This document shows positions 522 through 24,998 of a stretch of DNA of 24,998 nt, one piece after another. The DNA is taken from the IMG/VR virus record IMGVR_UViG_3300032163_000097, positions 1 through 24,998 of that record. One strand, given 5' to 3'. Each line of letters opens with the position of its first letter. The first letter of the stretch is position 1. The notes under the pieces were generated by a model, which searched no databases, was not told where the DNA came from, and saw only the letters and a list, made by a program, of their open reading frames with translations. Both the position numbers and the translations under genes were made by a program. The DNA is from a virus (taxonomy: Duplodnaviria > Caudoviricetes).

Positions 522-1663
522 TTAAAATGCCCGTAAAAGGATCGAGAAGTGGGATTTTTACTACCTGTAATTATTGTGGAGAAACAATTTATGTTTATCC
601 TTATCAATTAAAAAAGTTTAAATTTCATTATTGTAATGCCGAGTGTAGGGGAAAGGGGCATGAACCAGATGAAGAGACAAGGAAGAAATTAGGCAAGAGT
701 CATCTTGGTCAGCCTTCTTGGAATAAAGGGTTACGGAAAGAAACCGATCCTAGAGTTAAAAGGATGGCGGAAAGCCTTATCGGAAGACCCTCCTACCGAA
801 AGGGTATGTCTTATGAAGAGGAGTATGGAGAAAAGCGAGCCAGAGAGATTAAGGAAAAACTTACAGGTCATATCGCTTGGAGTAAGGGTTTAACAAAAGA
901 AACCGATTCTAGAATTAAAAGGGGAGCCGAACGCCGTACTGGGAGACCTTCCCATCGGAGGGGTGTGTCTTTTGACGAAGAGTATGGGGAAGAGCGAACC
1001 GAAGAGATTAAGGAAAAACTAAGCCAAAGCCATATAGGTCAAGTTCCTTGGAATAGAGGGTTGACCGTTGAAACAGATGAAAGAGTCAGAATAAAGGCGG
1101 AAAATCAGTTAGGAAGAGCGGTTTCCCCAGAAACTAAAGAAATTCTTAGTATAAGAGCCATAGAAGGATATGAAAACGGCAGAATAAATCCTATGAAAGG
1201 AAAGAAAAGATCAGATGAATGGAAACTTAATCAATCTTTAGTTAATAGAGGTAGGGTTCCTAGTGCAGAAGCAAGGCAAAAACAATCAGAAAGTATGAAA
1301 CTCCTTTATTTAAATCATCCAGAAAAACACCCAAACGCTCGTATGAGAAAAAATAAAAAGATGACGAAAATAGAGAGATTAACAAAAGAGTTCTTCGAAC
1401 GACTAGGATTTAAAATGGGAGAAGATTTTGTATATCAATATCTAGTTGTTTGCTCAAGGGGGACAAAATGGATAGATTTCTATTTCCCAAAATTTAAATT
1501 GGGCATAGAGTGTGACGGTTCTTATTGGCATCAAGATAAGGAGAAGGATAAGAAGAGAGACGAAGAGATATTATCCTTTTTAGGAGAAGGTAATATAATA
1601 GAGCATTTAACGGAAAAAGAAATTTTTAGTTTAAGATATTTACAAGGTGTAAAACATGTCTGA
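509..1663 (+). CDS. free-standing putative homing endonuclease (Zn finger, NUMOD3-like repeats, DUF559/Vsr-like nuclease domain)
   Basis: N-terminal CxxC...C finger; three W(N/S)(K/R)GLxxETDxR(V/I) repeats; C-terminal IDFYFPKFKLGIECDGSYWH...DKKRD motif; more AT-rich than flanks. Real start may be ATG 527. Confidence 0.8.
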   Translation: MDGVIKMPVKGSRSGIFTTCNYCGETIYVYPYQLKKFKFHYCNAECRGKGHEPDEETRKKLGKSHLGQPSWNKGLRKETDPRVKRMAESLIGRPSYRKGMSYEEEYGEKRAREIKEKLTGHIAWSKGLTKETDSRIKRGAERRTGRPSHRRGVSFDEEYGEERTEEIKEKLSQSHIGQVPWNRGLTVETDERVRIKAENQLGRAVSPETKEILSIRAIEGYENGRINPMKGKKRSDEWKLNQSLVNRGRVPSAEARQKQSESMKLLYLNHPEKHPNARMRKNKKMTKIERLTKEFFERLGFKMGEDFVYQYLVVCSRGTKWIDFYFPKFKLGIECDGSYWHQDKEKDKKRDEEILSFLGEGNIIEHLTEKEIFSLRYLQGVKHV

Positions 1664-3665
1664 TGAAGGAAAAAAGAGACCGTCAATTTTGCATCCTATA
1701 GCTAGAGCGAAGTGGGATGCTATGCGGTCTAGTTATAACGATGTTGTGGCTAGGGTGTTGCCCGCGGACGAAGCCGCCCGGTCTGATGTGGATCTCCCCC
1801 TGCAATGGCGTCAGGAACCGATTCAGTGGATTCTTTCAACTTTAGGGATTAAGAAACCTCCGGTTGGCTCTGGCGCCGGGTTCGTTCAGAGTCCGTACAT
1901 GGATATATATACCAAAACTTTTGGAACGACTCCGCTGGCGGATTTACCTAAGTATAGGTTGATGTTCAGAAATAATCCAGATATTATGGCCGCTATTGAG
2001 ATGCAGGCAAATTTGGCGATTGGGCGGGGGTTTTCGATATCCCATCCCAATAAGGAGGTTGTAGACTATTTAACTAGGCTCTGTGATAGGTTGAACGTAC
2101 AAAATGTGATGCTTGTCCTAGCGGCGGATTGCTTGATTTATGGGAACGCCTACGCAGAAATCTGTTACGATAAGCAAACCGATGAAATGGAGCCTCTATA
2201 TGATTTCAAGGGGGAAGCCTACACCAAAAAGGAACTAGAAGAAATTGGAGTAAAGGACGCACCGCAGGCGATGGCAAAAAATAGGTGGGTTCTGGACGAG
2301 GAGAAGATGGAGAATAAGCTCGTAGCCTTCGATAATCCCGTGCCTTTCACCGCTCAGGTGATCAGAAAGGCGGAAGACGCCGAGACTATAATTCAGTTAA
2401 AGCCGTTGGATCCTGTCTACATGCGTGTCAGACGGGATAGTTACGGGAATGTGTTTGGATTTATACAATGGATGAACTTCCCCCCGGCACTGATAGATAC
2501 AGATTCGATGATGCATATAAAATATCGCGAGAAGTCGTGGGGTTATGAAAGTGCGTATGGGACAAGTATTTTAATGCCTCTCGTAAAGAACAACGACCTC
2601 TTCAACCAGTTCGAGACCGATGCCGCCGTCTGGATTCATAGCAGAGCTGTGCCCCCCCTAATCGTTCAGGGAGGAAGCACAGAGAAGCCATACACCACAG
2701 CCCAGATGACCGACCTCATGTCGAAGCTCAAGGGCAGAACCGCCGCATCGATGATCTTCACGAAGGGCGACGTTCAAGTCAACGAGGTCGAGGGCGCGGC
2801 TAGGGCTCTCAACGTACAGTGGTGGGTTGACCTGCTCTTAACGAGACGCTATCAGGCTCTCGGAGTTCCACCCGTGCTTATGGGTTTACCCCAGAGCACC
2901 GGGAACCAGAGCGTGGGCGAGGTCATCTTCCAAGAGTTCGTCACCCGCCTCCAACTCTTGCAGGAGTTTTTGTCGGACGCATTCGAGACATATGTATTCT
3001 ATCCCCTAATTTTGAAGAAATTCGGGGAGACTATGGAGGACGAAAGCGGAAAGAAAATACCGATGCCAAAAGCTGAGATGGTATGGAAACCTATCATAGA
3101 GGAGGACCGCAACATGCGGGCTCAGAGGCTCATTCAGGGAGTCCAAGCCGGAACCATCAGTGTGAACGAATACCGCAAGGAGATGGGCTTCAAGGTGCTG
3201 GATGACCCCAAATACGACGAGATCAAGCCCATGGTGCCCGCCCAGATTCCATCGGGCACGCCCTTCCAAGACCAGAAGGTGAAGGACATCACGACGGTCC
3301 CGGAGGGGGTTCGGAAAAAGGATATCCCAGCGCCCCCGGTCGCACCTATAGAGATGAGCACCGAATTCAAGAATAATATGGTCGATGTGATCAGGGAGGC
3401 TAAGGCTTCTCTGGATGCGGGGAAGAGTTCTAGGGCGGTCAAGTCCGAGGCTAAGAAGAGGGCCAAGGAGCTGATCAACAAGTATGTTGTGTCCTTCTAT
3501 ATACAGGGGAGGGCCAAGGCGAACCTATCGCTGAATAAAACCGATGACATGAAGCTGAAGAAAGAGGAGATGCCCAAACTCATAGACCTCAAGAAGAAAT
3601 ATGAGAAGGACTTCGATAAAATCCTGACCGAGATGATAGAGGCCGATAAAGAGGGGAAGGCGTGA
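1656..3665 (+). CDS. portal protein with a C-terminal helical extension
   Basis: DCLIYGNAYAEI, LKPLDPVYMRVRRDSYG, YGTSIL, ALGVPPVLMG and GTISVNEYRKEMGF match phage portal signatures; first gene of the head module. Confidence 0.9.
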   Translation: MSDEGKKRPSILHPIARAKWDAMRSSYNDVVARVLPADEAARSDVDLPLQWRQEPIQWILSTLGIKKPPVGSGAGFVQSPYMDIYTKTFGTTPLADLPKYRLMFRNNPDIMAAIEMQANLAIGRGFSISHPNKEVVDYLTRLCDRLNVQNVMLVLAADCLIYGNAYAEICYDKQTDEMEPLYDFKGEAYTKKELEEIGVKDAPQAMAKNRWVLDEEKMENKLVAFDNPVPFTAQVIRKAEDAETIIQLKPLDPVYMRVRRDSYGNVFGFIQWMNFPPALIDTDSMMHIKYREKSWGYESAYGTSILMPLVKNNDLFNQFETDAAVWIHSRAVPPLIVQGGSTEKPYTTAQMTDLMSKLKGRTAASMIFTKGDVQVNEVEGAARALNVQWWVDLLLTRRYQALGVPPVLMGLPQSTGNQSVGEVIFQEFVTRLQLLQEFLSDAFETYVFYPLILKKFGETMEDESGKKIPMPKAEMVWKPIIEEDRNMRAQRLIQGVQAGTISVNEYRKEMGFKVLDDPKYDEIKPMVPAQIPSGTPFQDQKVKDITTVPEGVRKKDIPAPPVAPIEMSTEFKNNMVDVIREAKASLDAGKSSRAVKSEAKKRAKELINKYVVSFYIQGRAKANLSLNKTDDMKLKKEEMPKLIDLKKKYEKDFDKILTEMIEADKEGKA

Positions 3666-3672
3666 GTCTCCA

Positions 3673-3963
3673 TTGGCGGAAAAGGCTAAGGGCAAATACG
3701 ATGACGGGCGCACCACGGACTGGGTTGGCCGAATGGAAGACCTAGCATGGAGTCTATGTTTAGACACCTATAACGAGGGAACCCTTGATACATATTCGGA
3801 AAATAGAGACGTTGTAAAAAGAGTGAGATTTCTCACCAGCGAAGATGAAAAAGTTTGCCCCGAGTGTGGTTCTATGGACGGGGTGGAGTTTGAAATAGAT
3901 GAAGCCTATGGTATTTTAAGTCTTCATCCCTTCTGCCGCTGTACGTGGGTTCCAGTAACTTAA
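3673..3963 (+). CDS. MuF/SPP1 gp7-like minor head protein (C-terminal domain only)
   Basis: DEKVCPECGSMDG...HPFCRC signature, immediately after the portal. Confidence 0.85.
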   Translation: MAEKAKGKYDDGRTTDWVGRMEDLAWSLCLDTYNEGTLDTYSENRDVVKRVRFLTSEDEKVCPECGSMDGVEFEIDEAYGILSLHPFCRCTWVPVT

Positions 3964-6653: not shown

Positions 6654-7718
6654 ATGTCTAATATTTTAAGAGAGACCGATGCGGAGATTTCCAGCTTTAG
6701 TGGTTCCAATATAACTTCGTTTGAAGTCGGAAAGCCCGTTTATAACAAATTTTTCGACAATACTTCAGGAAAATGGGAACGTTGGTCGGGCTCGGGCGCT
6801 CCTTTTGTTCGTTTTATTCCCTCTTTAGAGGATTCTGCAACCAATAGCGTTCGTGTTGATATTGTTGCCGGGGATATAGAACTCGGAACAATAGGAATAA
6901 CTGGCTCAATTGGTCTTTCTGTTACGGGCTCGAATGTAATAAAAAATGTAGGAATTGACATTACAGGCTCAATAGGAAAATCTATCACCGGTTCCATAGG
7001 TCTTTCTATCACGGGATCGTCTACCCTTACCGTTCAAGGTTCGGTGGGAGTAACAGGATCAACCCCTCTTATAGTAGATGCTAGACAAAGTGGTAGCTGG
7101 AATATCGCAGGTGGTTCTGTAGGGATAACAGGATCGGGCATCCTAAACACCCTAGTTATAAACACGGGTTCAGTACCCGTTAAGGCTCAACTTACACATG
7201 CTACAGGTATAGCCCTTCCTCTAGATGAGGATGTGGGAATGCTTGCGATAATAGATATCGACCATTATATGATTCATAGTGGCTCGCATTTCTTTGTAAA
7301 TGATGTTAGTTCTGGAAGCGTGGGAGTACCTAAAAACTGGTTGTTTGTTTCACCAGCCACGGGAGAAGTTCACGCTTATATTCAAACTTCTAATGCCGCC
7401 GCAGGAACTTGGAGATTCTGGGAAGATATACCTGTGAGTAATAGTGGTTCTCAAGGAACCGCGTATAATAATAATAGGCAATCTGAGAAGACTGCTGGAT
7501 TAAAGGTTTATAGCAATCCTGTGACCGGTTCTGGTGGAACTTTAATTGCAGTATTCTATATGGGAACTATTACACAAGGAAACGCTAAACCGGGGGGGTT
7601 AGCCGAAAGAAACCAAGAAGTTATACTAAAGACGGGTTCTAGATACGCCCTACAATGGGAGCCGGATTCTGGAACCGTTATGTGCGCGATTAACGCCCAA
7701 TGGTATGAAGTAGCTTAA
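6654..7718 (+). CDS. putative virion fibre/decoration protein (TGS-rich beta repeats)
   Basis: Repeated (I/V)TGS(I/V)G units followed by a globular C-terminal domain; paralogous to 8075-8803. Confidence 0.6.
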   Translation: MSNILRETDAEISSFSGSNITSFEVGKPVYNKFFDNTSGKWERWSGSGAPFVRFIPSLEDSATNSVRVDIVAGDIELGTIGITGSIGLSVTGSNVIKNVGIDITGSIGKSITGSIGLSITGSSTLTVQGSVGVTGSTPLIVDARQSGSWNIAGGSVGITGSGILNTLVINTGSVPVKAQLTHATGIALPLDEDVGMLAIIDIDHYMIHSGSHFFVNDVSSGSVGVPKNWLFVSPATGEVHAYIQTSNAAAGTWRFWEDIPVSNSGSQGTAYNNNRQSEKTAGLKVYSNPVTGSGGTLIAVFYMGTITQGNAKPGGLAERNQEVILKTGSRYALQWEPDSGTVMCAINAQWYEVA

Positions 7719-8074: not shown

Positions 8075-8803
8075 TTGTCGCTAGGACCGACGGTCGAAAC
8101 GAGTGTCGTGAAGGCACCAGCATACGATCTCGCAGGAGATGTACTGAAGGTTAAGCTCAGTGGCTCCTATGTAGACCAACCAACTACTATAAAAATCCAT
8201 AGTGGCTCTGGATACACCGATGTCGGGTACTCAGGGAGCGATCTTTCAATTCCGGTGACGGTGATCGCTGGGGATATTGAGTTTGGAACGATAGCTATCA
8301 CGGGTTCAACCGTGACCTTCCCAGTGACGGGTTCCGTGGACGCTAGACAATCTGGTTCTTGGAACGTGGACGCACGCCAGAGTGGTTCATGGGGGGTTGG
8401 TGTAACTGAAGATATAGGGAAGTCTATCACAGGCTCTATAGCACTAACCGTTTCCAATCTCAGAGTTACGGGCTCCTTAACGACCACGCTTTATTCCGCG
8501 TTTAACTTTGCTTTAGGCGCTACGGGCTCAACGGGAAGTGGGAACTTTAATGTCACCCAATATTCGGGCAAGAGCGCCTACGCTTTTATTGGCACCACCC
8601 AGAACGCCTCGGGATCGCTGATAGTCTCGGGTTCCTTTGATGGGGGAACAAATTATTTCCAGTTCAGAAGCGGAAGCTTCGGGTCGGGGAGCCTGCAATG
8701 GTTCACATTCTTCGATGGTGTGACCCATATCTCCGTGAACCTTTTCAACCAAGTCACGGGTTCCGCGGTTTCTGGGAGTCTCTACTTAGTGGCACAGGCG
8801 TAG
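8075..8803 (+). CDS. putative virion fibre/decoration protein, paralog of 6654-7718
   Basis: Shares AGDIExGTIxITGS, DARQSGSW and IGKSITGSI with 6654; AGGAGG RBS before a TTG start. Confidence 0.6.
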   Translation: MSLGPTVETSVVKAPAYDLAGDVLKVKLSGSYVDQPTTIKIHSGSGYTDVGYSGSDLSIPVTVIAGDIEFGTIAITGSTVTFPVTGSVDARQSGSWNVDARQSGSWGVGVTEDIGKSITGSIALTVSNLRVTGSLTTTLYSAFNFALGATGSTGSGNFNVTQYSGKSAYAFIGTTQNASGSLIVSGSFDGGTNYFQFRSGSFGSGSLQWFTFFDGVTHISVNLFNQVTGSAVSGSLYLVAQA

Positions 8804-9702: not shown

Positions 9703-10716
9703 ATGGAGAAGGGATGTAACTATGGTCCGGGGCTTTGTAGAAAATGCGGTAAAGATCATGGTATACATCCTTGCTTAGGTAAACCGGGGCACCATCATTC
9801 TGAAGAAACTAAGAAAAAAATAAGTGATACTAAAAAGGGAAATAAAAATCCGATGTTTGGGCATACATATGGTGATATTCCTTGTATTAAATGTGGAAAG
9901 ATTCATACTCCCAATAGGGGAATGTTAGGAAGACGCCACACGGAAGAAACTAAAATAAAAATGAGTGAAAATCATAAAGGGTCGTTAGGAAAACATTGGT
10001 TTCATACAGAAGAATGGAAAAGGGATATGAGCAATAAATTAAAGGGTAGGCATCTTTCTGATGAACAAAAGGAACAAATATCGATTGTTCATACAGGTCT
10101 TCATCCATCTGAAGAGACTAGGGTGAGAATGAGTGAAGGAATGAAAGGAAAAAATAAAGGTAAAAAACGCACGCCGGAACAGATTGAACTATTTAGTAAA
10201 GTTCGTAAGGAGGAGTGGGAAAATCTTACTCCCGAAGAAAGAATGAAACGAGGAGCTATATCAAAGGAAGTTCAGAATAGACCCGATGTTAAAGCCAAAA
10301 AAAGCGAAAAACTTAAAAAGTCTTGGATAAACGGAGATTTTGATGAAGCAAATATGGGTGCGCGTGGAGTTGGAGGAAAACGATCCGATCTTAATGACCA
10401 GTTTTTCCGTTCTACTTGGGAAGCAAATTTGGCGAGAATTATGAACTATCATAAGATAAAGTGGGAATACGAACCTAAACGCTTTGATTTTGGAGAATTT
10501 AGTTATTGCCCCGATTTCTACCTACCCGAAACTGATTCTTGGGTTGAGGTGTACGGTTATCTAGATGAAGATAAAGCGAAAAAACTTTGGGCTATCTCCA
10601 AGTTAGTGAATATTCAAATTGTAAATGAAACCATCTATGACCAACTTAAAAGTGAGTTCAAGGACAAACTACCTTTCTGGGAGAATGGGAGAAAAAAGGT
10701 GAGTAATGATAAATGA
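9703..10716 (+). CDS. free-standing putative homing endonuclease (NUMOD3 repeats plus PD-(D/E)xK nuclease)
   Basis: HSEETKKKIS and HTEETKIKMS repeats; FRSTWEANLA...WEYEP...YCPDFYLP...VEVYG; AT-rich relative to flanks. Confidence 0.8.
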   Translation: MEKGCNYGPGLCRKCGKDHGIHPCLGKPGHHHSEETKKKISDTKKGNKNPMFGHTYGDIPCIKCGKIHTPNRGMLGRRHTEETKIKMSENHKGSLGKHWFHTEEWKRDMSNKLKGRHLSDEQKEQISIVHTGLHPSEETRVRMSEGMKGKNKGKKRTPEQIELFSKVRKEEWENLTPEERMKRGAISKEVQNRPDVKAKKSEKLKKSWINGDFDEANMGARGVGGKRSDLNDQFFRSTWEANLARIMNYHKIKWEYEPKRFDFGEFSYCPDFYLPETDSWVEVYGYLDEDKAKKLWAISKLVNIQIVNETIYDQLKSEFKDKLPFWENGRKKVSNDK

Positions 10717-11501
10717 GCACCGAAATCTTGTCTCCAGTCGATCAGCCATCGCTTTTATACCCCGCGTTGTATGGGGTGAAGCCTCGGCGGAAGGATTATC
10801 GGTGCAAAAGATGCGGCTCCGACAACCAGACGTGCCTCAGGGCTGAGACGAAATACTTCAGGGGGGGGAATCTCGAAGATGTTTTCTTCGACTTCGAGTG
10901 CGGATGCGGGAACGCTTTCTTCGTCGCCGCGAAGCTGCTGGTGAACGAGGTTCTGGAGGAGCAGATGGAGAGAATCTTCAACTTCACCAAGGTGACGGGC
11001 AAGGAGTTCGGGGCGCTGGTGATCAGGACCGTGGACGGGGATATCATTCTGGATATGTTCCAGATTGGGGAGAACCGCGAGGTGGAGATGGTTCCGACCC
11101 ACGAGATGAGGGAGGGGGAGGAGATTCTTGGAACCATGCATGTCCACCCCCAGTCACCAACATTTTCCTTATACGATCTGGCAACTATGATTCGCGACAA
11201 GAGATGGGAAAAGATAAGCATGGTGGCGGGGGCGGACGGGAGTTTCAACGTCGCCATACCCACCTCGAAGACGCCTAAAATGGAGGATATAGGCGCGTGG
11301 CTCAAAGAGAACGAGAATATGAAAGACGAGGACGGGAATGTAGACGCGGTGGGGTTAGCCAACAAGTATAACTTTCTGTTATACCGAGGGAAGGCGGATA
11401 ACCTGAAGTTGATTTCGGCGGATGATATTAAGACGTATACCTTGGAGGACTTGTTTAGGCGGGTCTCCGGGGTTAAGAATATAAAGGAGAGTAAGAAGTG
11501 A
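10713..11501 (+). CDS. JAB/MPN (JAMM-motif) metalloprotein with a Zn ribbon and an MCP-like N-terminal peptide
   Basis: KEFGA plus HVHPQSPTFSLYD (HxH-x7-S-x2-D-like); CKRC and CGC. Confidence 0.75.
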   Translation: MSTEILSPVDQPSLLYPALYGVKPRRKDYRCKRCGSDNQTCLRAETKYFRGGNLEDVFFDFECGCGNAFFVAAKLLVNEVLEEQMERIFNFTKVTGKEFGALVIRTVDGDIILDMFQIGENREVEMVPTHEMREGEEILGTMHVHPQSPTFSLYDLATMIRDKRWEKISMVAGADGSFNVAIPTSKTPKMEDIGAWLKENENMKDEDGNVDAVGLANKYNFLLYRGKADNLKLISADDIKTYTLEDLFRRVSGVKNIKESKK

Positions 11502-11590: not shown

Positions 11591-11866
11591 ATGAGTGTTC
11601 CAGATGCAGTGTATCCGCTCAGGACATTCCCAGAGATAATCACGACAAGCTTGACGGCGACCAACGTGACGGGTAGCTCTATAGTTTCGGGCTCTTCCGT
11701 CTATGGCGCTTACGCCAAAATAACTACCGTCAGCGGAAGCACAATATCCGCCGCGGGTGGATCGTTCATCCCGCCGACGGGCTCGGCCTCGGGTTCTCTC
11801 GTCGCCAGCCTGACCATGGCGGTGAACATAACGGGAAGCACGTATTACGTCCAGTTATTTGCTTAG
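11591..11866 (+). CDS. small Ser/Thr-rich virion (fibre/spike-like) protein
   Basis: GGAGG RBS in an A-rich leader; beta-rich; six [ST]GS motifs; ends YYVQLFA. Confidence 0.55.
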   Translation: MSVPDAVYPLRTFPEIITTSLTATNVTGSSIVSGSSVYGAYAKITTVSGSTISAAGGSFIPPTGSASGSLVASLTMAVNITGSTYYVQLFA

Positions 11867-12137: not shown

Positions 12138-13166
12138 GTGCCGTGGGAGGAAAATCCTGAAACTATTCGCAGCGGGCATGGGGAGATAGGCAGATTCGAT
12201 CCGAAATCCTTCAGAACCATAGATATCACCGAAGGAATCAAAGCTGTGATAGGTTGCCCCAAGGGAAACTTCGTGAACGGTAAATGCAAGGTGGGTACAG
12301 AGGTTCAGAGCTACATTTTTTCGAAGCCGAAGTTCACCATGAAAACTGCAAAGGCATGGTTCAAAGAGCACGAGGGCGCTAAGAAGGAGGAAGAGGAAAT
12401 GGACGAGAAACTTTCTTGGATTCAGGAGATAGAGCGCGCTTTCAGGGCTATGGATGATAAGGAGAGGTTTGTTGCAATTTCTACTTGGACAGAAGAGCAA
12501 CTTACAGAAAAGATCGCCGAACTTCAAAAACAACTCGATAGTTTATGGACGAAACCGCCTGAACCTGAGGATATAGAAAAAGAGAAAAAAAGAGCACGTC
12601 TTTCCGCGGAAATAGAAGCCTATAAACAAGCTTTAGCTGAACTTATTAAAAAGAAGGTTCAGGGAGAAAATATTAAAACTTCTAATTGGAAGGCGTCCTT
12701 TAACTACTCCGCGGGAACCATGATAGCCGAACTTTTGCCCGATTTCGAGACGCCGAATAAAAACGGCTTCTTCTTGGATAAATCTCTAAAGGAGAAAATA
12801 ATTGCGAAACTCAATTCGGGAAAGGTTTTTCTTACAGATTCCCACGGTAGAACATTAAGAGATATTTTAGGAAAAGTTACAAAGGGGTTCGAGCGGGGCG
12901 GGAAAATAAAAATTGAGGCTGATCTTGACCCAGATATTGATCCCAAAATCGATAAAATTCTTACGAAATATAAGGACAACTTAGGGGTCTCTTTAGAAGG
13001 TCCGGGCGCGGGATATTGTACGATTTGCGGTCAACGGGTTCACGGAATGGAGAGATGCTTCAAACATCCGAAGGCTCCAATTGTCGTGAAGGAGTTTGAC
13101 TTGAGAAAAGTCGCTCTTACGGACGATCCCGCGTGGGAGACGAGTAGGGTAGAGGATTATGTCTGA
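12138..13166 (+). CDS. prohead (maturation) protease with N-terminal accessory domains
   Basis: PNKNGFF...DSHG...LGKV...GVSLEG...CTICG...VALTDDPA match HK97-type protease motifs (putative His and Ser); directly before the scaffold. Confidence 0.8.
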   Translation: MPWEENPETIRSGHGEIGRFDPKSFRTIDITEGIKAVIGCPKGNFVNGKCKVGTEVQSYIFSKPKFTMKTAKAWFKEHEGAKKEEEEMDEKLSWIQEIERAFRAMDDKERFVAISTWTEEQLTEKIAELQKQLDSLWTKPPEPEDIEKEKKRARLSAEIEAYKQALAELIKKKVQGENIKTSNWKASFNYSAGTMIAELLPDFETPNKNGFFLDKSLKEKIIAKLNSGKVFLTDSHGRTLRDILGKVTKGFERGGKIKIEADLDPDIDPKIDKILTKYKDNLGVSLEGPGAGYCTICGQRVHGMERCFKHPKAPIVVKEFDLRKVALTDDPAWETSRVEDYV

Positions 13167-13932: not shown

Positions 13933-14364
13933 ATGGCATATCTAAGTCTTGAGGGTACGAAGGACTTCTTAGCTGCGACTCCGGCGCTTATCGTAACGTA
14001 CGTGGCGTCTGGGTCAATTGCTGCAGGGAACGGTCTGAAGTGGGATGCTGGAAACACAGGCGAGGTCTGGGCAGATACGGCGGGAGCGCTGGGTAAATGC
14101 GCGGGCGTCGCCTTGGCTACGGTATCCGATGGCGACAACGTTCCTGTGTTGGTCTGGGGCTACGCAAAGAATCTTGTTTCTTACGAAACGATGGTTCCGG
14201 GAGATCGCATCATGCTTAGTAGTGTTGCGCAGGGACCGGGATTTACTAAGGACGTACCAGTCCTTGTTTCCGGTTCATATTCTGCCAGCATATACAAGTG
14301 TGGTGTCTGTGTAACCAACGTGACGAGCGGAAGCAAGTTCATGGCCCTGATCAACTGCATGTAG
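13933..14364 (+). CDS. capsid cement/decoration protein
   Basis: A.GSIAAG...AGVALATVSDGDNVPVLVWG pattern (DUF2190-like), immediately before the MCP. Confidence 0.75.
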   Translation: MAYLSLEGTKDFLAATPALIVTYVASGSIAAGNGLKWDAGNTGEVWADTAGALGKCAGVALATVSDGDNVPVLVWGYAKNLVSYETMVPGDRIMLSSVAQGPGFTKDVPVLVSGSYSASIYKCGVCVTNVTSGSKFMALINCM

Positions 14365-14463: not shown

Positions 14464-15558
14464 ATGTCTTTATCTAGAGAAATTCTTAGTCCAGTAACTA
14501 CAGCCGGCTTGCTATACGAGAGGGATGAACAGTCTTCTCGGGCAAAATCCCGCGCTGCACACACTCGTAAGCCAAATCGCCATGCCGAACATGGTGGCGA
14601 GAGAGTAAGTAGTTCAAACCTTTTGAGCTATTATTCCGCCAGACAATTTCTGCAAAACTACAGTCTGACCGCCAGTAACTCAATAACCTTCCCGAAGCAG
14701 TCAGGATCGCCAGCGGCGGTCGTGAACCAAGTCGCGGAGGGCGCTGAGTTCCCGATGGATGTCACCGCGTACAGTGCTGTAAACGTCGTTCCTTACAAGG
14801 TCGCGCATGGTTTTATAATCACGCGTGAGACTATTGAGGACAGCCTCATTCCTATCCAACAGGATCAGCTTGCTCGTGCCGCTCTGCGTGTCGCGAACAA
14901 GGTTGACAAGGATTGCATCAGTGTAATCAACACGGGTAGGAGTGGCTCGACGGCGGCAACAGGAAAATCGCTTGCGCTGAATGGCACTGAGTTCGTCTTG
15001 AGTGGCTCTGGAGGCTTGGGTATCGGCATGTATACTCCTAAAAGGAGTAGTGTAAACGATATCATAGCCGCGAAGAGCCTTGTGGAGAACAACAACTATA
15101 TGCCTGATAGAGAAAGTAGTAATAAAATATTATTTCTCCGGGAAACGTTGTTAGTTCACCCACGAGCGAAGGTGTTCATAGAGAGGCTTCCGCACTTCAC
15201 GGCTCAGTATTCGTACGGAGAGCCGAGAATGCAGACGGGCTTCATAGCGACGCCGGGTAAGTTTGGTGATATCTTGGGACTAGATGCTTATGCTTCGACT
15301 AACTGCCCAACGGGCTCCGCATTCGTGCTGAGCAGGGGCAGAACCACGAACATCCTCGGCCAGTATAAAGGAGTCGGGTAACTCTAACTTCTTGCTGAAA
15401 GTCCGTTAGGATTCTTCGTGGAAAGAAGGCCCATCACCACAGCGATAAAGCCGCTCGAAGAGAGGGATAGCATCGGCATCTATGTGTCTATGAGGTACGC
15501 ACCAACTGTAATACGCGGCGAGGCCGCGTGCGAGATCACTGGTATCAATGTGAGCTAA
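14464..15558 (+). CDS. HK97-fold major capsid protein split into 6 exons: join(14464..14515,14547..14601,14643..15031,15056..15108,15145..15366,15400..15558), 309 aa
   Basis: Spliced product MSLSREILSPVTTAGLLYPALHTLVSQIAMPNMVARQFLQNYSLTASNSITFPKQ...VAEGAEFP...YKVAHGFIITRETIEDS...GIGMYDIIAAKSLVENNNYMPDTLLVHP...GDILGLDAYAST...GQYSPLGFFVERRPITT...DSIGIYVSMRYAPTVIRGEAACEITGINVS. Exons total 930 nt. Confidence 0.92.
14516..14546 (+). other. BHB intron 1 of MCP (31 nt, frameshifting)
   Basis: Central helix UGCU(14510-13)/GGCA(14541-44); bulges AU^A and AA^A; intron stem CGAGAGGG/UCUUCUCG; ligation gives CTA TAT CCC (L-Y-P). Outer helix imperfect. Confidence 0.88.
14602..14642 (+). other. BHB intron 2 of MCP (41 nt, frameshifting)
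   Basis: Central helix GGCG(14596-99)/CGCC(14637-40); bulges AG^A and AG^A; stems GAGUAA/UUAUUC and UAGUUCAAA/UUUGAGCUA; ligation gives GCG AGA CAA (A-R-Q). Outer helix weak. Confidence 0.9.
15032..15055 (+). other. BHB intron 3 of MCP (24 nt, in-frame)
   Basis: Outer helix UAUCG/CGAUA; central GCAU(15026-29)/GUGU(15050-53); bulges GU^A and AA^A; stem UACUCCU/AGGAGUA; ligation gives ATG TAC GAT (M-Y-D). Confidence 0.88.
15109..15144 (+). other. BHB intron 4 of MCP (36 nt, in-frame)
   Basis: Outer AUG/CGU; central CCUG(15103-06)/CGGG(15139-42); bulges AU^A and AA^A; stems GAGAAA/UUUCUC and UAGUA/UAUUA; ligation gives CCT GAT ACG (P-D-T-L-L-V-H-P). Confidence 0.9.
15367..15399 (+). other. BHB intron 5 of MCP (33 nt, contains an in-frame TAA)
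   Basis: Outer GGC/GUC; central CAGU(15361-64)/GCUG(15394-97); bulges AU^A and AA^A; stem AAGGAGU/ACUUCUU; ligation gives CAG TAT AGT CCG (Q-Y-S-P). Confidence 0.92.
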
Positions 15559-16145: not shown

Positions 16146-16646
16146 ATGGTTTCCACCGATCCCGTTATCAAGACCCTGAGTCTCCTAAGCTCTAGCTGGA
16201 GTCTCACGGGCAACCTAACGGGCTCCAACCTAAAATTCGGAACATACTGGCTCCGCGGTCCGCCCGACGTGATCCGGGATAACCGCTATTGGGTTGTCGT
16301 AAAGTGCTTCAACCCTAGAAGCACGCTTTTAACGACCGGGGCGCAACCTCTTTACCGCCACGACGAACTCCTGACCGTTGGGGTCTATGTACGGGTTGAC
16401 AGCGATAGAAACGCCACCACCTTGGGGCAGGGGAAGGCGGATATCTACAACATGCAAAAGGAGGTCGAAAGGGTTCTCTTCTCGGGAAGCAGGATCGCAA
16501 CGGGGAGCGCGGATGGTTCGAGCGGCAGGGAAGATTTCTTAATAGTGGGGAATTGGCGCGAAATGGATGAGACGAACTGGCTCCCTATTCTGTACAGGAG
16601 GGAGCTAGAGGTAAATTATTGTTATCACGAGAGTGGTTCAACATGA
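16146..16646 (+). CDS. putative tail terminator/neck protein
   Basis: Position, size and beta-rich pattern (LTVGVYVRV...EVERVL...YRRELEVNY); start reassigned to ATG 16146 after a GAGGGAG RBS. Confidence 0.55.
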   Translation: MVSTDPVIKTLSLLSSSWSLTGNLTGSNLKFGTYWLRGPPDVIRDNRYWVVVKCFNPRSTLLTTGAQPLYRHDELLTVGVYVRVDSDRNATTLGQGKADIYNMQKEVERVLFSGSRIATGSADGSSGREDFLIVGNWREMDETNWLPILYRRELEVNYCYHESGST

Positions 16647-16969
16647 TAGAAACGAAGGAACTCATCGAGGATTTCCTAGAGGAGAACTGGGAGAAAATCA
16701 GAAAGACCTATCCCAACGTGATAAACGTGGGGGTCGGCAACAAACGCATTAATGGGGCGGAGACGGACCAGCCCTGTATAGTTTTCTACGTCTCCCAAAA
16801 AAAGCCTCTAGCTGTGCTTAAACCCGAGCACCAGATTCCAAAGGTATTGGACGAGGTGCGAACAGATGTCGTGGAGTTGAGCGCGAAAGACTATGTAATG
16901 GGCGAGACGGAGCCCAGCAAACTGCCTCATAGGGTTCAAAAGAGGCTAGCGGGAGGGGTCAAGCGGTGA
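16643..16969 (+). CDS. stand-alone protease prodomain-like protein (Nal1 N-terminal-like)
   Basis: PNVINVGVGNK..NG.ETDQPCIVFYVSQKKP...L.PEHQIP..LD.VRTDVVE; ATGA overlap at 16643. Confidence 0.6.
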   Translation: MIETKELIEDFLEENWEKIRKTYPNVINVGVGNKRINGAETDQPCIVFYVSQKKPLAVLKPEHQIPKVLDEVRTDVVELSAKDYVMGETEPSKLPHRVQKRLAGGVKR

Positions 16970-17766
16970 GCGTTGATTTGCGCCCCCTTTGCAGCCCTAT
17001 TCGGAATCAGGGGCAATGCGGAAGTTGCACCGCCTTTGGCACCGTTGGGGCATGGGAGGAAATTCTGCGCAAACTCACTCCCGGGGATGACACGGACCTT
17101 TCGGAGAAACATCTATTTTTTTGTAGTGGCGGAAAATGTAGTGAAGGGAATACTCCAGATGCCGTTCTCAACCAAGCCACGAAAGGTGTCTGCATCGAAA
17201 GTTGTTTACCCTATGGAATAACAAGCTCAGGCATCGACTCGAAATGCGCGAGCGGGATTTGCGACAACTGGTGGGAGAAGGGGAAAAAGTTAGCCTCTTG
17301 GAAATCTGTTAAGGACGTAAATGAGATGAAGAATATTCTCCAGCAGGGGCACGCCCTAGCCACCACGATGGCAGTTCACCAAAGCTTCATGAACTTTTGC
17401 GCGGGGGTTTATCATAGCCTCGGGGCCAGCGATCCCATTGTGGGATACCACATGATCAGTTGTGTTGGTTTTAGCGATGGTCTGGGGGCGTGGTTGATAA
17501 GGAACAGCTGGGGCACAGGCTGGGGCGAATCTGGGTACGTTTGGATAAAATACGGGGATAGCGAAATAGACTCGGAGATGTACCAACTCATCCCCGATGG
17601 CGAAATTCCCCCTCAACCGGGCCCAACGCCCTCGCCGTGTTCGGTTGGAAATGGAGTCGCGGTGATCATGAATTTCTTTCCGTGGATTTTGGGGAGGAAG
17701 GGAAGATTTTATTATATGAATTTCAACAAAGTGAGTAATTGTAAAAAAGGAGGAAAACGAACATGA
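16966..17766 (+). CDS. papain-family (C1A) cysteine peptidase
   Basis: SVDLR...PIRNQGQCGSCTAF (Gln, Cys), GYHMISCVGF (His), WLIRNSWGTGWGESGY (Asn). Confidence 0.92.
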   Translation: MSVDLRPLCSPIRNQGQCGSCTAFGTVGAWEEILRKLTPGDDTDLSEKHLFFCSGGKCSEGNTPDAVLNQATKGVCIESCLPYGITSSGIDSKCASGICDNWWEKGKKLASWKSVKDVNEMKNILQQGHALATTMAVHQSFMNFCAGVYHSLGASDPIVGYHMISCVGFSDGLGAWLIRNSWGTGWGESGYVWIKYGDSEIDSEMYQLIPDGEIPPQPGPTPSPCSVGNGVAVIMNFFPWILGRKGRFYYMNFNKVSNCKKGGKRT

Positions 17767-22703: not shown

Positions 22704-24287
22704 ATGAATTTCCTAAAGAAAATAATTAGAAGATGGGTGCTATCTCTCCTATCCGAGGGCATTAAAGTGGGAGAGAATACCGTCTACGTTTACCCTACCT
22801 ACATAGATGTCGGCGGGGGGAGCCTGAGAGCGGTCGGAGATGTCTCAGGCAGTTTAATCCCCACATACACCAACACCTATGATATGGGCTCCACGGATAA
22901 GTATTGGAAAGATGCATTCATCTCCGGTTCAATTCACGGAACACCGGGGGTTACGATCCCGGGGAGTTACCTGACTACCGGTTCGATAGAGGCAGGAAAA
23001 TTAGCGGCGGGAGCGGTTCAGACCGCGAATATAGCTAACCTAGCAATCACCGAAGCTCTCATAGCTGCTGGCGCGATCACTGAAGTGAAAATCAATACTG
23101 GTTCAATTACTGAAGCTAAATTAGCCGCTAACGCGGTCACTGAAACAAAAATTGCCAATGGTTCAATCAGCACCCCTAAGATAGTTGCGGGAGCGATCCA
23201 AGCCGGTCAGATCGCAGCGGGAGCCGTGACCACAGAGAAAATAGATGCCTTAGCCGTAAACGCCGATAAGATCGCGGCTAATGCTGTAACTACAGCTAAG
23301 ATAGATGCGCTGGCTGTAAATGCGGCGAAGATTGCGGCGGGCGCAGTATCCGCCCAGAAGCTTGCTATCGTGGATTGGTATCCCGTTGGGTTGACTTGGA
23401 CGGATAATAGCCCCTCGGCGGGGTACGTGGCTTGGTCCGCCTGTACTATGTATTACAACGGTAATAGCTATTCCGTCGCTGGGGGTAACACGAACCTACA
23501 GTATATTTGGTGGGATTTCACCTATCCCACCGCCTTCCAAACCTCCGCCACGAAGCCGACCCTTACCGGTGAGGATGCTATGGTCGCGGTGAATAGGGCG
23601 GGAACCCACCATCAGATTCTTCAGGCTACGTTGATTGATGGTGGCTCTATACTCACGGCTAGTATTTACGCGGATGAAATAGGGGCAGGGGCAATCACTT
23701 CCGCTAAAATTTCGTCCGATCAGATTTTTGGTAAAGACTTCCGCACCGCGGAAAATGTTGGGGAGGTGAGCGGATCCGCGGGAGTAAGATTTGATTCCAG
23801 TGGCATCAGAGGCTATTTAGGGGGAACAACAAAAACCTTCAAGTTGAGTTCAACAGATGGTGTTATCACCGTATTAGGAAATGGTGTGTTTAAACTTGCT
23901 AAAGCAGACGAAACTTTGATTGGTTGGCTTGATTATTCAAGTTATGATAGTATCGATTCTCTTGCATTAAGAGCCAATGCAGCGCGTTTGGTATTAGATG
24001 CAAATGGTGATCCAATATATATTGACCAAGGTGGAAACATTACTTTCAGTGATAACTTTGTTGCGCTTAGACCAGCCACTGATTTAGGCGTTGATTTAGG
24101 AACACCTTCTGCATCCTTTAGATACTTTGTGCCAACAACAGCTTCCGCTAGTCGTCCTGCCGCGTCGGCGAATGTGCATGGTCTTCTATGGATAAATACG
24201 GCGGCAGGCGCAAAAGACACGGCTTGGATTTGCCTGAAAAACGATGCTGATGGATATGAGTGGGTTCAGGTGGCGATAAGCACGTGA
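22704..24287 (+). CDS. tail fibre protein
   Basis: About 13 tandem 10-aa repeats (A(I/V)TxxK(I/L)AAx); P..T..YD.GS...W fibre motif. Confidence 0.8.
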   Translation: MNFLKKIIRRWVLSLLSEGIKVGENTVYVYPTYIDVGGGSLRAVGDVSGSLIPTYTNTYDMGSTDKYWKDAFISGSIHGTPGVTIPGSYLTTGSIEAGKLAAGAVQTANIANLAITEALIAAGAITEVKINTGSITEAKLAANAVTETKIANGSISTPKIVAGAIQAGQIAAGAVTTEKIDALAVNADKIAANAVTTAKIDALAVNAAKIAAGAVSAQKLAIVDWYPVGLTWTDNSPSAGYVAWSACTMYYNGNSYSVAGGNTNLQYIWWDFTYPTAFQTSATKPTLTGEDAMVAVNRAGTHHQILQATLIDGGSILTASIYADEIGAGAITSAKISSDQIFGKDFRTAENVGEVSGSAGVRFDSSGIRGYLGGTTKTFKLSSTDGVITVLGNGVFKLAKADETLIGWLDYSSYDSIDSLALRANAARLVLDANGDPIYIDQGGNITFSDNFVALRPATDLGVDLGTPSASFRYFVPTTASASRPAASANVHGLLWINTAAGAKDTAWICLKNDADGYEWVQVAIST

Positions 24288-24998
24288 CTAAAAAAGAGGA
24301 GATATTCAATAAATTCCTTAAGGAGTATCTTTCTCTAGGAATTGCTAGCGTCGCTGCACAAAAACTCGCGGAGGAGATGACCGGACGGGCGATTAATGAA
24401 CTCCGCGTTCTTGTTCTCGATCCTATATCGGGCGGACCGACTTCGTGGAACTGGCAGGATATTGTACCCAACGTTGATACAATACCGAATGGCGGACCCG
24501 CTTCTTGGGCGTGGACTCTCTTCTCTGGAAGTCTTACTACTCCCATCGGTGATCCTTTGGGATGGGATTGGGGGCAGATTTCTGGGACACATTCCGATAT
24601 AGCCCACGCAGATAGTGGGCATAGCGATATCCATTCAGATATATTGCATTCGGATGCTGGGCATTCCGACAGTCACTCTGATATCTCACATTCAGATGCA
24701 ACCCACTCTAATATAGTTTACTCTGACTCACATTCAGATGCAACCCACTCTAATATAGTTCATTCCGATACGTTACATTCCGACGCGGGACCAGATGTTC
24801 ATAGCAATACCCATAGTGATGTATTACATTCCGACGCCGGTCCTGATATACATAGCGATGTCGCTCACACGGAGCACGCGGAGGGCACGCATCAAGATGT
24901 TCCACACTCGGATATAACCCATTCTAATATTTCTCACGCAGATATCCATTCTGATATTTATCACTCTAATATAGCTCATTCTGATGCTGCTCATTCGG
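24284..24998 (+). CDS. His-Ser-Asp repeat protein (partial, runs off the window); not in the ORF track
   Basis: GTG overlaps the fibre stop; frame open to the end: MTKKEEIFNKFLKEYLSLG...GQISGT-HSDIA-HADSG-HSDI-HSDIL-HSDAG-HSDS... Confidence 0.85.
   Translation, partial: MTKKEEIFNKFLKEYLSLGIASVAAQKLAEEMTGRAINELRVLVLDPISGGPTSWNWQDIVPNVDTIPNGGPASWAWTLFSGSLTTPIGDPLGWDWGQISGTHSDIAHADSGHSDIHSDILHSDAGHSDSHSDISHSDATHSNIVYSDSHSDATHSNIVHSDTLHSDAGPDVHSNTHSDVLHSDAGPDIHSDVAHTEHAEGTHQDVPHSDITHSNISHADIHSDIYHSNIAHSDAAHS
24685..24760 (+). repeat. 34-bp exact direct repeat (42-nt period) in the HSD array
   Basis: CTCACATTCAGATGCAACCCACTCTAATATAGTT at 24685-24718 and 24727-24760. Confidence 0.9.

What the first reader, a model, noticed from the sequence alone, without database searches (positions are those of the whole stretch)
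10713..10769. JAB/MPN protein begins with a copy of the spliced MCP N-terminal arm
MSTEILSPVDQPSLLYPAL versus spliced MCP MSLSREILSPVTTAGLLYPAL: 12 of 16 residues identical with the same spacing but many different codons, so conservation is at the protein level. LLYPAL exists in the MCP only after intron 1 removal, giving independent internal support for that splice. Inference: the peptide mimics the capsid N-arm to dock the JAB enzyme on the capsid or scaffold, or acts as a decoy. A virion-linked JAMM isopeptidase could strip ubiquitin-like modifiers attached to virion proteins by host defences.
Basis: partly seen in the sequence, partly recalled or inferred. Interest (0 to 1): 0.78.

Follow-up and report, generated by a model that had tools for sequence, protein, structure and literature searches.

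The report
Capsid-arm copy on viral JAMM enzyme
In a clade of uncultured, likely archaeal tailed viruses, a zinc enzyme with the catalytic residues of deubiquitinase-type (JAMM) proteases starts with a conserved copy of the first ~20 residues of the virus's own capsid protein, which likely works as an anchor that builds the enzyme into the virus head.

Summary
The JAB protein (10713-11501) shares 12 of 16 residues with the spliced capsid protein (MCP) arm, but only 4 of those 12 codons. Intronless relatives prove the splice (275 of 309 residues identical after removing five introns). The arm is complete in 28 of 30 JAB homologues that reach the N-terminus and degenerate in 2. It is as conserved as the catalytic core, yet unstructured in the predicted monomer. 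In two 100-kb relatives only MCP and JAB carry it. It maps onto the mature HK97 N-arm, not a propeptide. The JAMM residues are invariant in 35 of 35 rows, and three alleles carry an intein inside HxH. Covariation with the genome's own MCP is weak (p=0.01 for 8 pairs, 0.13 for 5 direct pairs, no tree correction). Both 100-kb relatives also encode a separate operon with an E1 (ThiF), a second JAB, and putative Ubl and E2 genes, so the substrate could be viral. Best reading (0.55): the arm anchors an active JAMM enzyme in the head. Binding, packaging and substrate are untested, and co-folding was unavailable. Two earlier findings of this scan report the same arm.

The parts
10713..10769 (+). MCP-like N-terminal arm of the JAB protein (residues 1-19; shared 16-mer = residues 4-19)
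   Evidence: pLDDT 36 and no secondary structure in the monomer model
10713..11501 (+). arm + zinc ribbon + JAB/MPN (JAMM) protein, 262 aa
   Evidence: Prok-JAB E 1.9e-5; model mean pLDDT 77
10803..10907 (+). four-cysteine zinc ribbon (C31, C34, C63, C65)
   Evidence: C in 31, 31, 33 and 31 of 35 rows, the rest mostly fragments; weak TFIIS/Rpb9-type ribbon matches
11004..11177 (+). JAMM catalytic residues E98, H143, H145, S152, D155
   Evidence: each present in 35 of 35 rows; intein inside HxH in L010, L020, L021
14464..15558 (+). HK97-fold major capsid protein gene, 309 aa after removal of five short introns
14464..14515 (+). MCP exon 1 (most of the N-arm)
14516..14546 (+). intron 1 (31 nt, bulge-helix-bulge), splits the N-arm at its Tyr codon
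14602..14642 (+). intron 2 (41 nt; borders chosen by the bulge-helix-bulge fold among 8 slip-equivalent ones)
15033..15056 (+). intron 3 (24 nt, in frame; borders +/-1)
15109..15144 (+). intron 4 (36 nt, in frame)
15367..15399 (+). intron 5 (33 nt, holds an in-frame stop)
12138..13166 (+). likely prohead protease (by position and a recalled C-terminal motif; no Pfam S78 hit)
   Evidence: same position in L001, L002, L003, L019
13276..13914 (+). likely scaffold (acidic/basic; fused to the protease in relatives)
   Evidence: inference
13933..14364 (+). likely cement/decoration protein
   Evidence: weak Phage_cement_2 E 0.029
1656..3963 (+). portal and small MuF-like protein of the same head module
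   Evidence: Phage_portal E 8.8e-12; Phage_Mu_F E 4e-9

Best explanation
The JAB protein carries a conserved copy of the capsid protein's N-terminal arm, which likely binds where a capsid N-arm normally binds and so would build a few copies of a likely active JAMM zinc protease into the virus head. Shown: shared ancestry and protein-level conservation of the two arms; the splice; intact JAMM residues; a fixed place in the head module upstream of the protease and MCP; exclusivity to MCP and JAB. Predicted: the arm is not part of the JAB fold; it corresponds to the mature HK97 N-arm, so it is a retained structural element and not a cleaved propeptide. Inferred: it occupies an N-arm site, either on the scaffold or shell interior during prohead assembly, or at sites left empty by the missing penton at the portal vertex. 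It keeps the Pro/Tyr/hydrophobic anchors (P5, V6, L12, Y13, P14, L16) and has drifted at positions 7-10. Inferred, least certain: the enzyme removes ubiquitin-like tags from head proteins during assembly, or from targets in the next host after release; the tag may come from the host or from the virus's own Ubl-E1 operon.
For: Arm complete in 28 of 30 homologues that reach the N-terminus, across all branches of the JAB tree. Column conservation: arm 0.67, JAB core 0.68, linker 0.43, zinc ribbon 0.52, C-terminus 0.49. Residues 1-20 have pLDDT 36 while the core is mostly 80-93: conserved but unfolded alone, as for a binding peptide. An MCP-arm profile scores only MCP and JAB in G001 (57.7, 31.6; next -7.2 of 201,856 16-mers) and G002 (62.5, 51.2; next -3.4 of 212,538). 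MCP model residue 23 aligns with HK97 residue 126 (Z 16.0, rmsd 3.6, 216 aligned) and residue 27 with HFTV1 residue 125 (Z 15.5, rmsd 3.7, 216 aligned); HFTV1's mature chain starts after residue 100 (PMC12494034, passages). All 3 IMG/VR records found through the clade's MCP carry the arm-bearing JAB in the head module. Precedents for peptide anchoring: T4 capsid targeting sequence (PMC9958956); the P74-26 portal vertex protein's N-arm joins the MCP P-domain sheet (PMC12407722).
Against: No binding, packaging or activity is shown. Own-genome pairing is weak: p=0.010 for 8 pairs (3 linked only by equal contig length), p=0.13 for the 5 directly observed pairs; it rests on about four substitutions and is not corrected for kinship. 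The JAB arm has lost T8, which is kept in 56 of 57 MCP arms, and falls to 6-7 of 16 identity with its own MCP in two pairs. In P0007/L003, P0010, P0110 and P0112 the called protein has 35-55 extra residues before the arm, so a free N-terminus may not be needed. The MCP model is low-confidence (mean pLDDT 61.5; arm below 50). More distant relatives with a similar MCP arm (L025/L026, 40% identity) have no such JAB in the loci or in the 47-kb record, so the enzyme is not needed for this capsid type.
Confidence: 0.55

Rival explanations
1. Shared docking motif for a third protein only: both arms bind the same assembly factor (scaffold, prohead protease or a host chaperonin). This brings the JAB transiently to assembly sites, where it acts, but it is not retained in the virion.
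For: Only the hydrophobic/Pro anchors are shared and positions 7-10 differ. HK97-type N-arms are disordered and inside the prohead before expansion (T4; PMC9958956), so they are free to bind partners there.
Against: It predicts nothing about the head-protein-like small domains fused in front of the arm in P0110/P0112 (family recalled, no Pfam hit). It overlaps with the best explanation if the partner is the scaffold.
Confidence: 0.18
2. Decoy or bait: a host capsid sensor or ubiquitin-like ligase recognises the MCP N-arm. The JAB shows the same peptide so that it is recruited to that machinery, soaks it up and removes the tag.
For: Ubl conjugation onto virion proteins is a real defence (Bil conjugates a Ubl to the central tail fibre; 10.1101/2023.09.04.556158, abstract and passages). 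The MCP arm is nearly invariant and so a plausible target.
Against: A decoy should match the MCP arm closely, yet the JAB arm keeps its own P/S signature. An escape target would vary rather than stay invariant. No host is assigned and no host system was tested.
Confidence: 0.12
3. Pseudosubstrate or cleavage-site copy: the arm is a protease recognition site, cut in both proteins by the prohead protease, or bound by the JAB's own active site as an auto-inhibitory mimic of its substrate MCP.
For: The T4 capsid targeting sequence also permits proteolytic processing (title of ref. 58 in PMC9958956). The JAB gene lies just upstream of the likely prohead protease.
Against: The MCP arm maps on the mature N-arm with no propeptide in front. 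The monomer model does not pack the arm on the JAB domain (pLDDT 36).
Confidence: 0.1
4. Relic: an old duplication of the MCP gene's 5' end (ribosome site plus first codons) was fused to a JAB gene, and the peptide has no function.
For: The start of both genes coincides with the match. Mobile segments move around this gene: a helical segment is an insertion, an N-terminal extension or a separate ORF in different loci.
Against: The arm is as conserved as the catalytic core across JABs only 40-50% identical. Changes among close strains are mostly synonymous (3:1 and 5:2 codons). Codons are largely different from the MCP's.
Confidence: 0.05

Closest known systems
Phage T4 capsid targeting sequence (CTS) of internal proteins IPII/IPIII (PMC9958956, passages)
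   Same: A short N-terminal peptide on a non-shell protein; in T4 it directs cargo into the head.
   Different: The review describes the CTS as conserved in IPII and IPIII, not as a copy of the capsid protein's arm. Here the tag is a paralogue of the MCP N-arm and is found on one protein only.
Portal vertex protein (PVP) of Thermus phage P74-26 (PMC12407722, passages)
   Same: An accessory head protein whose N-arm joins the MCP P-domain sheet at the vertex that lacks a penton.
   Different: PVP is structural. The passages read report no sequence likeness of its arm to the MCP arm and no enzyme domain.
MuF minor head proteins and MuF toxins, e.g. SPP1 gp7 (PMC5576092, passages)
   Same: Encoded near the portal, present in few copies in the head, proposed to deliver enzyme domains (peptidase, ADP-ribosyltransferase) into the host.
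   Different: No MuF domain in this protein; the MuF-like gene is separate (3673-3963). 'JAB' does not occur in that paper's main text.
Lambda/T1 tail assembly protein K (JAB + NlpC/P60) with Ubl protein I (PMC1779556, passages)
   Same: A viral JAB domain in a virion assembly module.
   Different: Tail rather than head; partnered with an adjacent Ubl and NlpC/P60. Here there is a zinc ribbon and a capsid arm, and no adjacent Ubl was seen (only a scan for GG-ending small ORFs).
Encapsulin cargo-loading peptides (recalled; encapsulins top the fold search)
   Same: An enzyme is loaded into an HK97-fold shell through a short terminal peptide.
   Different: Cellular compartments; as recalled, their loading peptides are not copies of the shell protein's N-arm.
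Bil (BilABCD) Ubl anti-phage system (10.1101/2023.09.04.556158, abstract and passages)
   Same: Shows that Ubl tags are put on virion proteins and that a deubiquitinase belongs to such systems.
   Different: Host-encoded, bacterial, targets the tail fibre. No link to this virus was tested.

Membership tests
JAB/MPN+ (JAMM) metalloproteases | E...HxH...S-x2-D metal-site motif | tested here: met
   E98, H143, H145, S152, D155 in 35 of 35 rows; H145-S152 spacing is x6 (canonical x7 spacing recalled)
JAB/MPN+ (JAMM) metalloproteases | Family profile match (PF14464) | tested here: met
   25 bits at cut-off 25 for the window protein; 30.8 and 27.3 bits for P0005 and P0009
JAB/MPN+ (JAMM) metalloproteases | MPN fold by structural comparison | not tested
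   A model was made (mean pLDDT 77) but no fold search of it was obtained; sequence search of the PDB found no JAMM relative at E<=1
JAB/MPN+ (JAMM) metalloproteases | Cleaves after the C-terminal Gly of a Ubl (isopeptidase activity) | not testable with these tools
   Needs an assay. A weak match to the JAB-like DUF4329 (P0005, E 0.0025) leaves other JAB-fold activities open
HK97-fold major capsid protein | HK97 fold with N-arm, spine helix, P and A domains | tested here: met
   Z 16.0, rmsd 3.6, 216 aligned to HK97 mature capsid; Z 15.5 to HFTV1; Pfam PF25209. Model is low-confidence
HK97-fold major capsid protein | Shared peptide is the mature N-arm rather than a cleaved delta domain | tested here: met
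   Register places residues 1-22 before HK97 residue 126 and residue ~3 at HFTV1 residue 101, its first mature residue; the arm itself is not confidently modelled
T4-type capsid targeting sequence | Shared by several internal proteins of one virus | tested here: not met
   Only MCP and JAB score in the window, G001 and G002
T4-type capsid targeting sequence | Sufficient to direct a passenger protein into heads | not testable with these tools
   Needs a fusion experiment
MuF minor head protein / MuF toxin | MuF domain (PF04233/PF06152) at the N-terminus | tested here: not met
   No such Pfam match in the window JAB or 7 homologues. An Atlas cluster with PF06152 in 63% of members scored 0.84 against the core, a lead only
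Archaeal bulge-helix-bulge intron (intron 1) | 4-bp helix between two 3-nt bulges at the splice sites; removal restores the protein of intronless relatives | tested here: met
   (motif definition recalled)
Archaeal bulge-helix-bulge intron (intron 1) | Spliced RNA observed | not testable with these tools
   No RNA run was available to lay

The most novel reading that the evidence does not exclude
These viruses run their own ubiquitin-like cycle on the capsid. A virus-encoded Ubl-E1-E2 operon (or the host's system) tags head proteins, and a JAMM deconjugase that copies the capsid's own N-arm plugs into the N-arm sites left empty at the portal vertex, where it strips the tags as a maturation checkpoint or travels in the virion as a pre-armed counter-defence. 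It would be self-mimicry of a capsid arm used as an enzyme-loading signal.
Probability: 0.2. Interest if true: 0.87.

Novelty: new variant of a known kind. Interest (0 to 1): 0.62.

Why it matters
If right, it shows a simple route to new virion components: duplicate the capsid's own arm onto an enzyme. It gives a defined 16-20 residue tag to test for loading HK97-type shells. It also puts a deubiquitinase-type enzyme in the head module of likely archaeal viruses whose relatives encode their own E1 and a putative Ubl, which makes Ubl conflict over virion proteins testable in archaea. Ten literature searches showed no report of such an arm copy. The library lacks most subscription papers and I read no supplements. 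Within this scan it is not new: two earlier findings describe the same arm in other genomes.

Tried and rejected
A deeper search of protein representatives and a fold search of the JAB model were also not obtained, so distant JAB relatives and the structural match stay open. No RNA holder listed. No JAB or MCP match in the INPHARED phage collection. The genome-contig scan gave one weak, unrelated hit, so no provirus and no host. A DNA pattern for the MCP arm gave 6 stretches: 3 known clade members and 3 chance matches. Atlas hits were all under 0.9, leads only. RNA-level explanation (shared 5' element or recent gene conversion): rejected, since identical codons among identical residues are 4 of 12 (window), 3 of 8, 7 of 14, 6 of 11 and 1 of 5 (L001, L002, L003, L019). 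The window row was mis-indexed and is replaced. Other proteins with the arm: none. Head JAB as a recent paralogue of the operon JAB: rejected (hhalign probability 2.5%; one match per genome). The 'JAB' hits in the Asgard virus preprint were accession numbers. The Bathyarchaeia virus preprint's main text has no JAB, MPN or ubiquitin; its supplements could not be seen and may annotate such genes. Rows left out of the pair test: L009 (its MCP arm has a different in-frame insertion with ambiguous borders), L015 and L017 (near copies of L019), duplicates of one record, and JAB loci without MCP. P0116 was left out of the tree.

Full report
Setting. The window is a 25-kb fragment of a tailed-virus genome (the whole of G000). 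It holds a portal (1656-3665), a MuF-like protein, fibre-like genes, a NUMOD3 endonuclease, the JAB gene (10713-11501), a likely prohead protease, scaffold and cement protein, and an HK97-type MCP. The host is not assigned. An archaeal host is inferred from bulge-helix-bulge introns in an mRNA (their dependence on the archaeal splicing endonuclease is recalled) and from family B polymerase, clamp-loader, ERCC4 and archaeal DUF2153 matches in relative G002 (119 of its 123 listed ORFs scanned).

The observation. The JAB ORF starts with the stated 19 residues. The MCP gene holds five short introns (14516-14546, 14602-14642, 15033-15056, 15109-15144, 15367-15399). Their removal gives 309 aa, 275 of 309 identical without gaps to intronless P0038. 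Intronless MCPs in L001-L003 carry the arm unbroken, and a near strain's contig in DNA run X3 lacks introns 1, 4 and 5. The arms share 12 of 16 residues (9 of 16 unspliced) and 4 of 12 codons. Among 435 pairs of 30 window proteins, only one other pair, two paralogous fibre-like proteins, reaches 12 of 16. Family against family, only the first 22 columns align (E 2.9e-6).

Distribution. Of 35 JAB rows (some are close strains), 5 are fragments lacking the start, 28 have the full P-x7-Y-P arm and 2 (P0111, P0112) keep only its second half. The arm occurs on every branch of the JAB core tree (34 rows). Its column conservation (0.67) equals the catalytic core's (0.68) and exceeds linker (0.43), zinc ribbon (0.52) and C-terminus (0.49) (26 rows). 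A profile from 57 MCP arms (of 88 homologues; most others are fragments or interrupted genes) scores only MCP and JAB in the window and in the 101-kb and 106-kb records G001 and G002. All 3 IMG/VR records reached through the clade's MCP carry the JAB in the head module. More distant viruses (MCP 40% and 26% identical) lack it in their loci and records (G003 is 52% complete, G004 100%).

Does it track the MCP? Weakly. The MCP arm is nearly fixed (T8 in 56 of 57, A9 in 52 of 57), whereas the JAB arm has P9 (18 of 20) and S10 (17 of 20). Own-genome identity is 12, 8, 14, 12 and 7 of 16 in five directly observed pairs, and 6, 8 and 9 in three pairs linked only by equal contig length. Permutation gives p=0.010 (identity) and 0.0016 (BLOSUM) for 8 pairs, and p=0.13 for the 5 direct pairs. 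The signal rests on about four substitutions and is not corrected for kinship. L009, L015, L017 and duplicates were left out.

What the arm is. The MCP model (L002 sequence, mean pLDDT 61.5, arm below 50) matches HK97-fold shells and encapsulins. Residue 23 aligns with HK97 residue 126 and residue 27 with HFTV1 residue 125. HFTV1's virion MCP lacks residues 1-100 (PMC12494034, passages). The shared peptide is therefore the mature N-arm with no propeptide before it. In the JAB model (mean pLDDT 77) residues 1-20 are unstructured (pLDDT 36), ahead of a zinc ribbon, a long helix and the catalytic domain. A conserved peptide outside its own protein's fold points to a partner in trans; that step is inference.

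The enzyme. E98, H143, H145, S152 and D155 are present in 35 of 35 rows. Three alleles (L010, L020, L021) carry an intein within HxH; inteins favour essential catalytic sites (recalled). This argues for an active metal site. The substrate is unknown. G001 and G002 both encode, far from the head genes, a four-gene operon: a ~70-aa protein ending in TTGA (weak ThiS match, E 0.012, in G002 only), a ~415-aa protein with a His-Pro...Cys motif that I read as E2-like (recalled, no Pfam hit), a second JAB (E 5e-4, 1e-4) and a ThiF/E1 (E 4e-30, 4e-27). The two JABs are only remotely related. The window is too short to show whether its own genome has the operon. A weak DUF4329 match and Atlas leads leave open a JAB-fold effector instead of an isopeptidase.

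Mechanism. Best reading (0.55): the arm binds an N-arm site and incorporates the enzyme in the head, on the scaffold or inner shell during assembly or at the portal vertex where a penton is missing. Precedents are T4's capsid targeting sequence (PMC9958956, passages), the P74-26 portal vertex protein (PMC12407722, passages) and MuF cargo (PMC5576092, passages). Context fits: in the distant relative L026 the same region holds large proteins with a repeated RDxxG[RK]W motif, one with an ADP-ribosyltransferase-like match; reading that motif as a head-cargo tag is recalled and untested. Rivals: transient docking on a shared assembly factor (0.18), decoy for a host sensor or ligase such as Bil (0.12; 10.1101/2023.09.04.556158), cleavage site or pseudosubstrate (0.10), relic (0.05). 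No complex was folded, so direct binding remains open.

Novelty. Ten paper searches listed no report of a capsid-arm copy on a viral enzyme. Viral JABs in print that I saw are the lambda-type tail protein K (PMC1779556, passages). Two further preprints were checked by term only, and no supplements were read. Two earlier findings of this scan describe the same arm in other genomes; they agree but are not independent support. Verdict: real, conserved family-wide, a new variant of peptide-directed head loading, with untested mechanism; interest 0.62.

Noticed in passing
window 14464-15558: Five bulge-helix-bulge-type micro-introns (24-41 nt) in one viral capsid gene; relatives have other insertions at other sites, some with endonuclease genes (L009 MCP start; P0070, P0076, P0085, P0093-P0098). 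One search for such introns in archaeal virus capsid genes found no paper.
   Followed up: partly
L109:13143-16696 (G002); L107:10376-13842 (G001): Virus-encoded operon of a putative Ubl (ends TTGA), an E2-like protein, a JAB and a ThiF/E1 enzyme.
   Followed up: partly
L010:1735-3666, L020:358-2232, L021:3617-5434: Intein with a DUF559-type endonuclease inserted inside the JAMM HxH motif; the window allele has Val at the Cys position that the intein uses.
   Followed up: partly
window 11591-11866; L001:7565, L002:7607 and 4983, L116:10826, L011, L016, L018, L020, L115: The gene after JAB starts with a second conserved N-terminal motif (VP/IP-x3-PL-x2-Y/F) on otherwise variable Gly/Ser/Thr-rich proteins, possibly another virion-anchoring peptide.
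   Followed up: no
L011, L015-L021 (insert); L003, P0010 (N-terminal extension); L002:6646-6843, L115:7065-7235 (separate ORF): A ~35-residue helical segment moves between three positions relative to the JAB gene: inside the zinc ribbon, in front of the arm, or as its own ORF upstream.
   Followed up: partly
P0110, P0112: A small PKP..GE.R...L.RCM domain is fused in front of the arm; recalled as common on head-module proteins, no Pfam hit.
   Followed up: partly
L026:65-6945, L025: Distant relative without JAB has three RDxxG[RK]W motifs on a giant portal extension and a large ORF with an ADP-ribosyltransferase-like domain (E 1.9e-6).
   Followed up: partly
window 6654-7718 and 8075-8803: Two Gly/Ser/Thr-rich fibre-like proteins share a 16-mer at 12 of 16 identity.
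   Followed up: no
window 16619-17766: NAL1_N-like small protein followed by a papain-family (Peptidase_C1, E 2.4e-31) protease within the neck/tail genes.
   Followed up: no
window 24260-24997: Open-ended ORF with many His-Ser-Asp repeats.
   Followed up: no
L003:5866-8949, L116:4843-8043: Portal genes carry what appear to be inteins at the same site.
   Followed up: no
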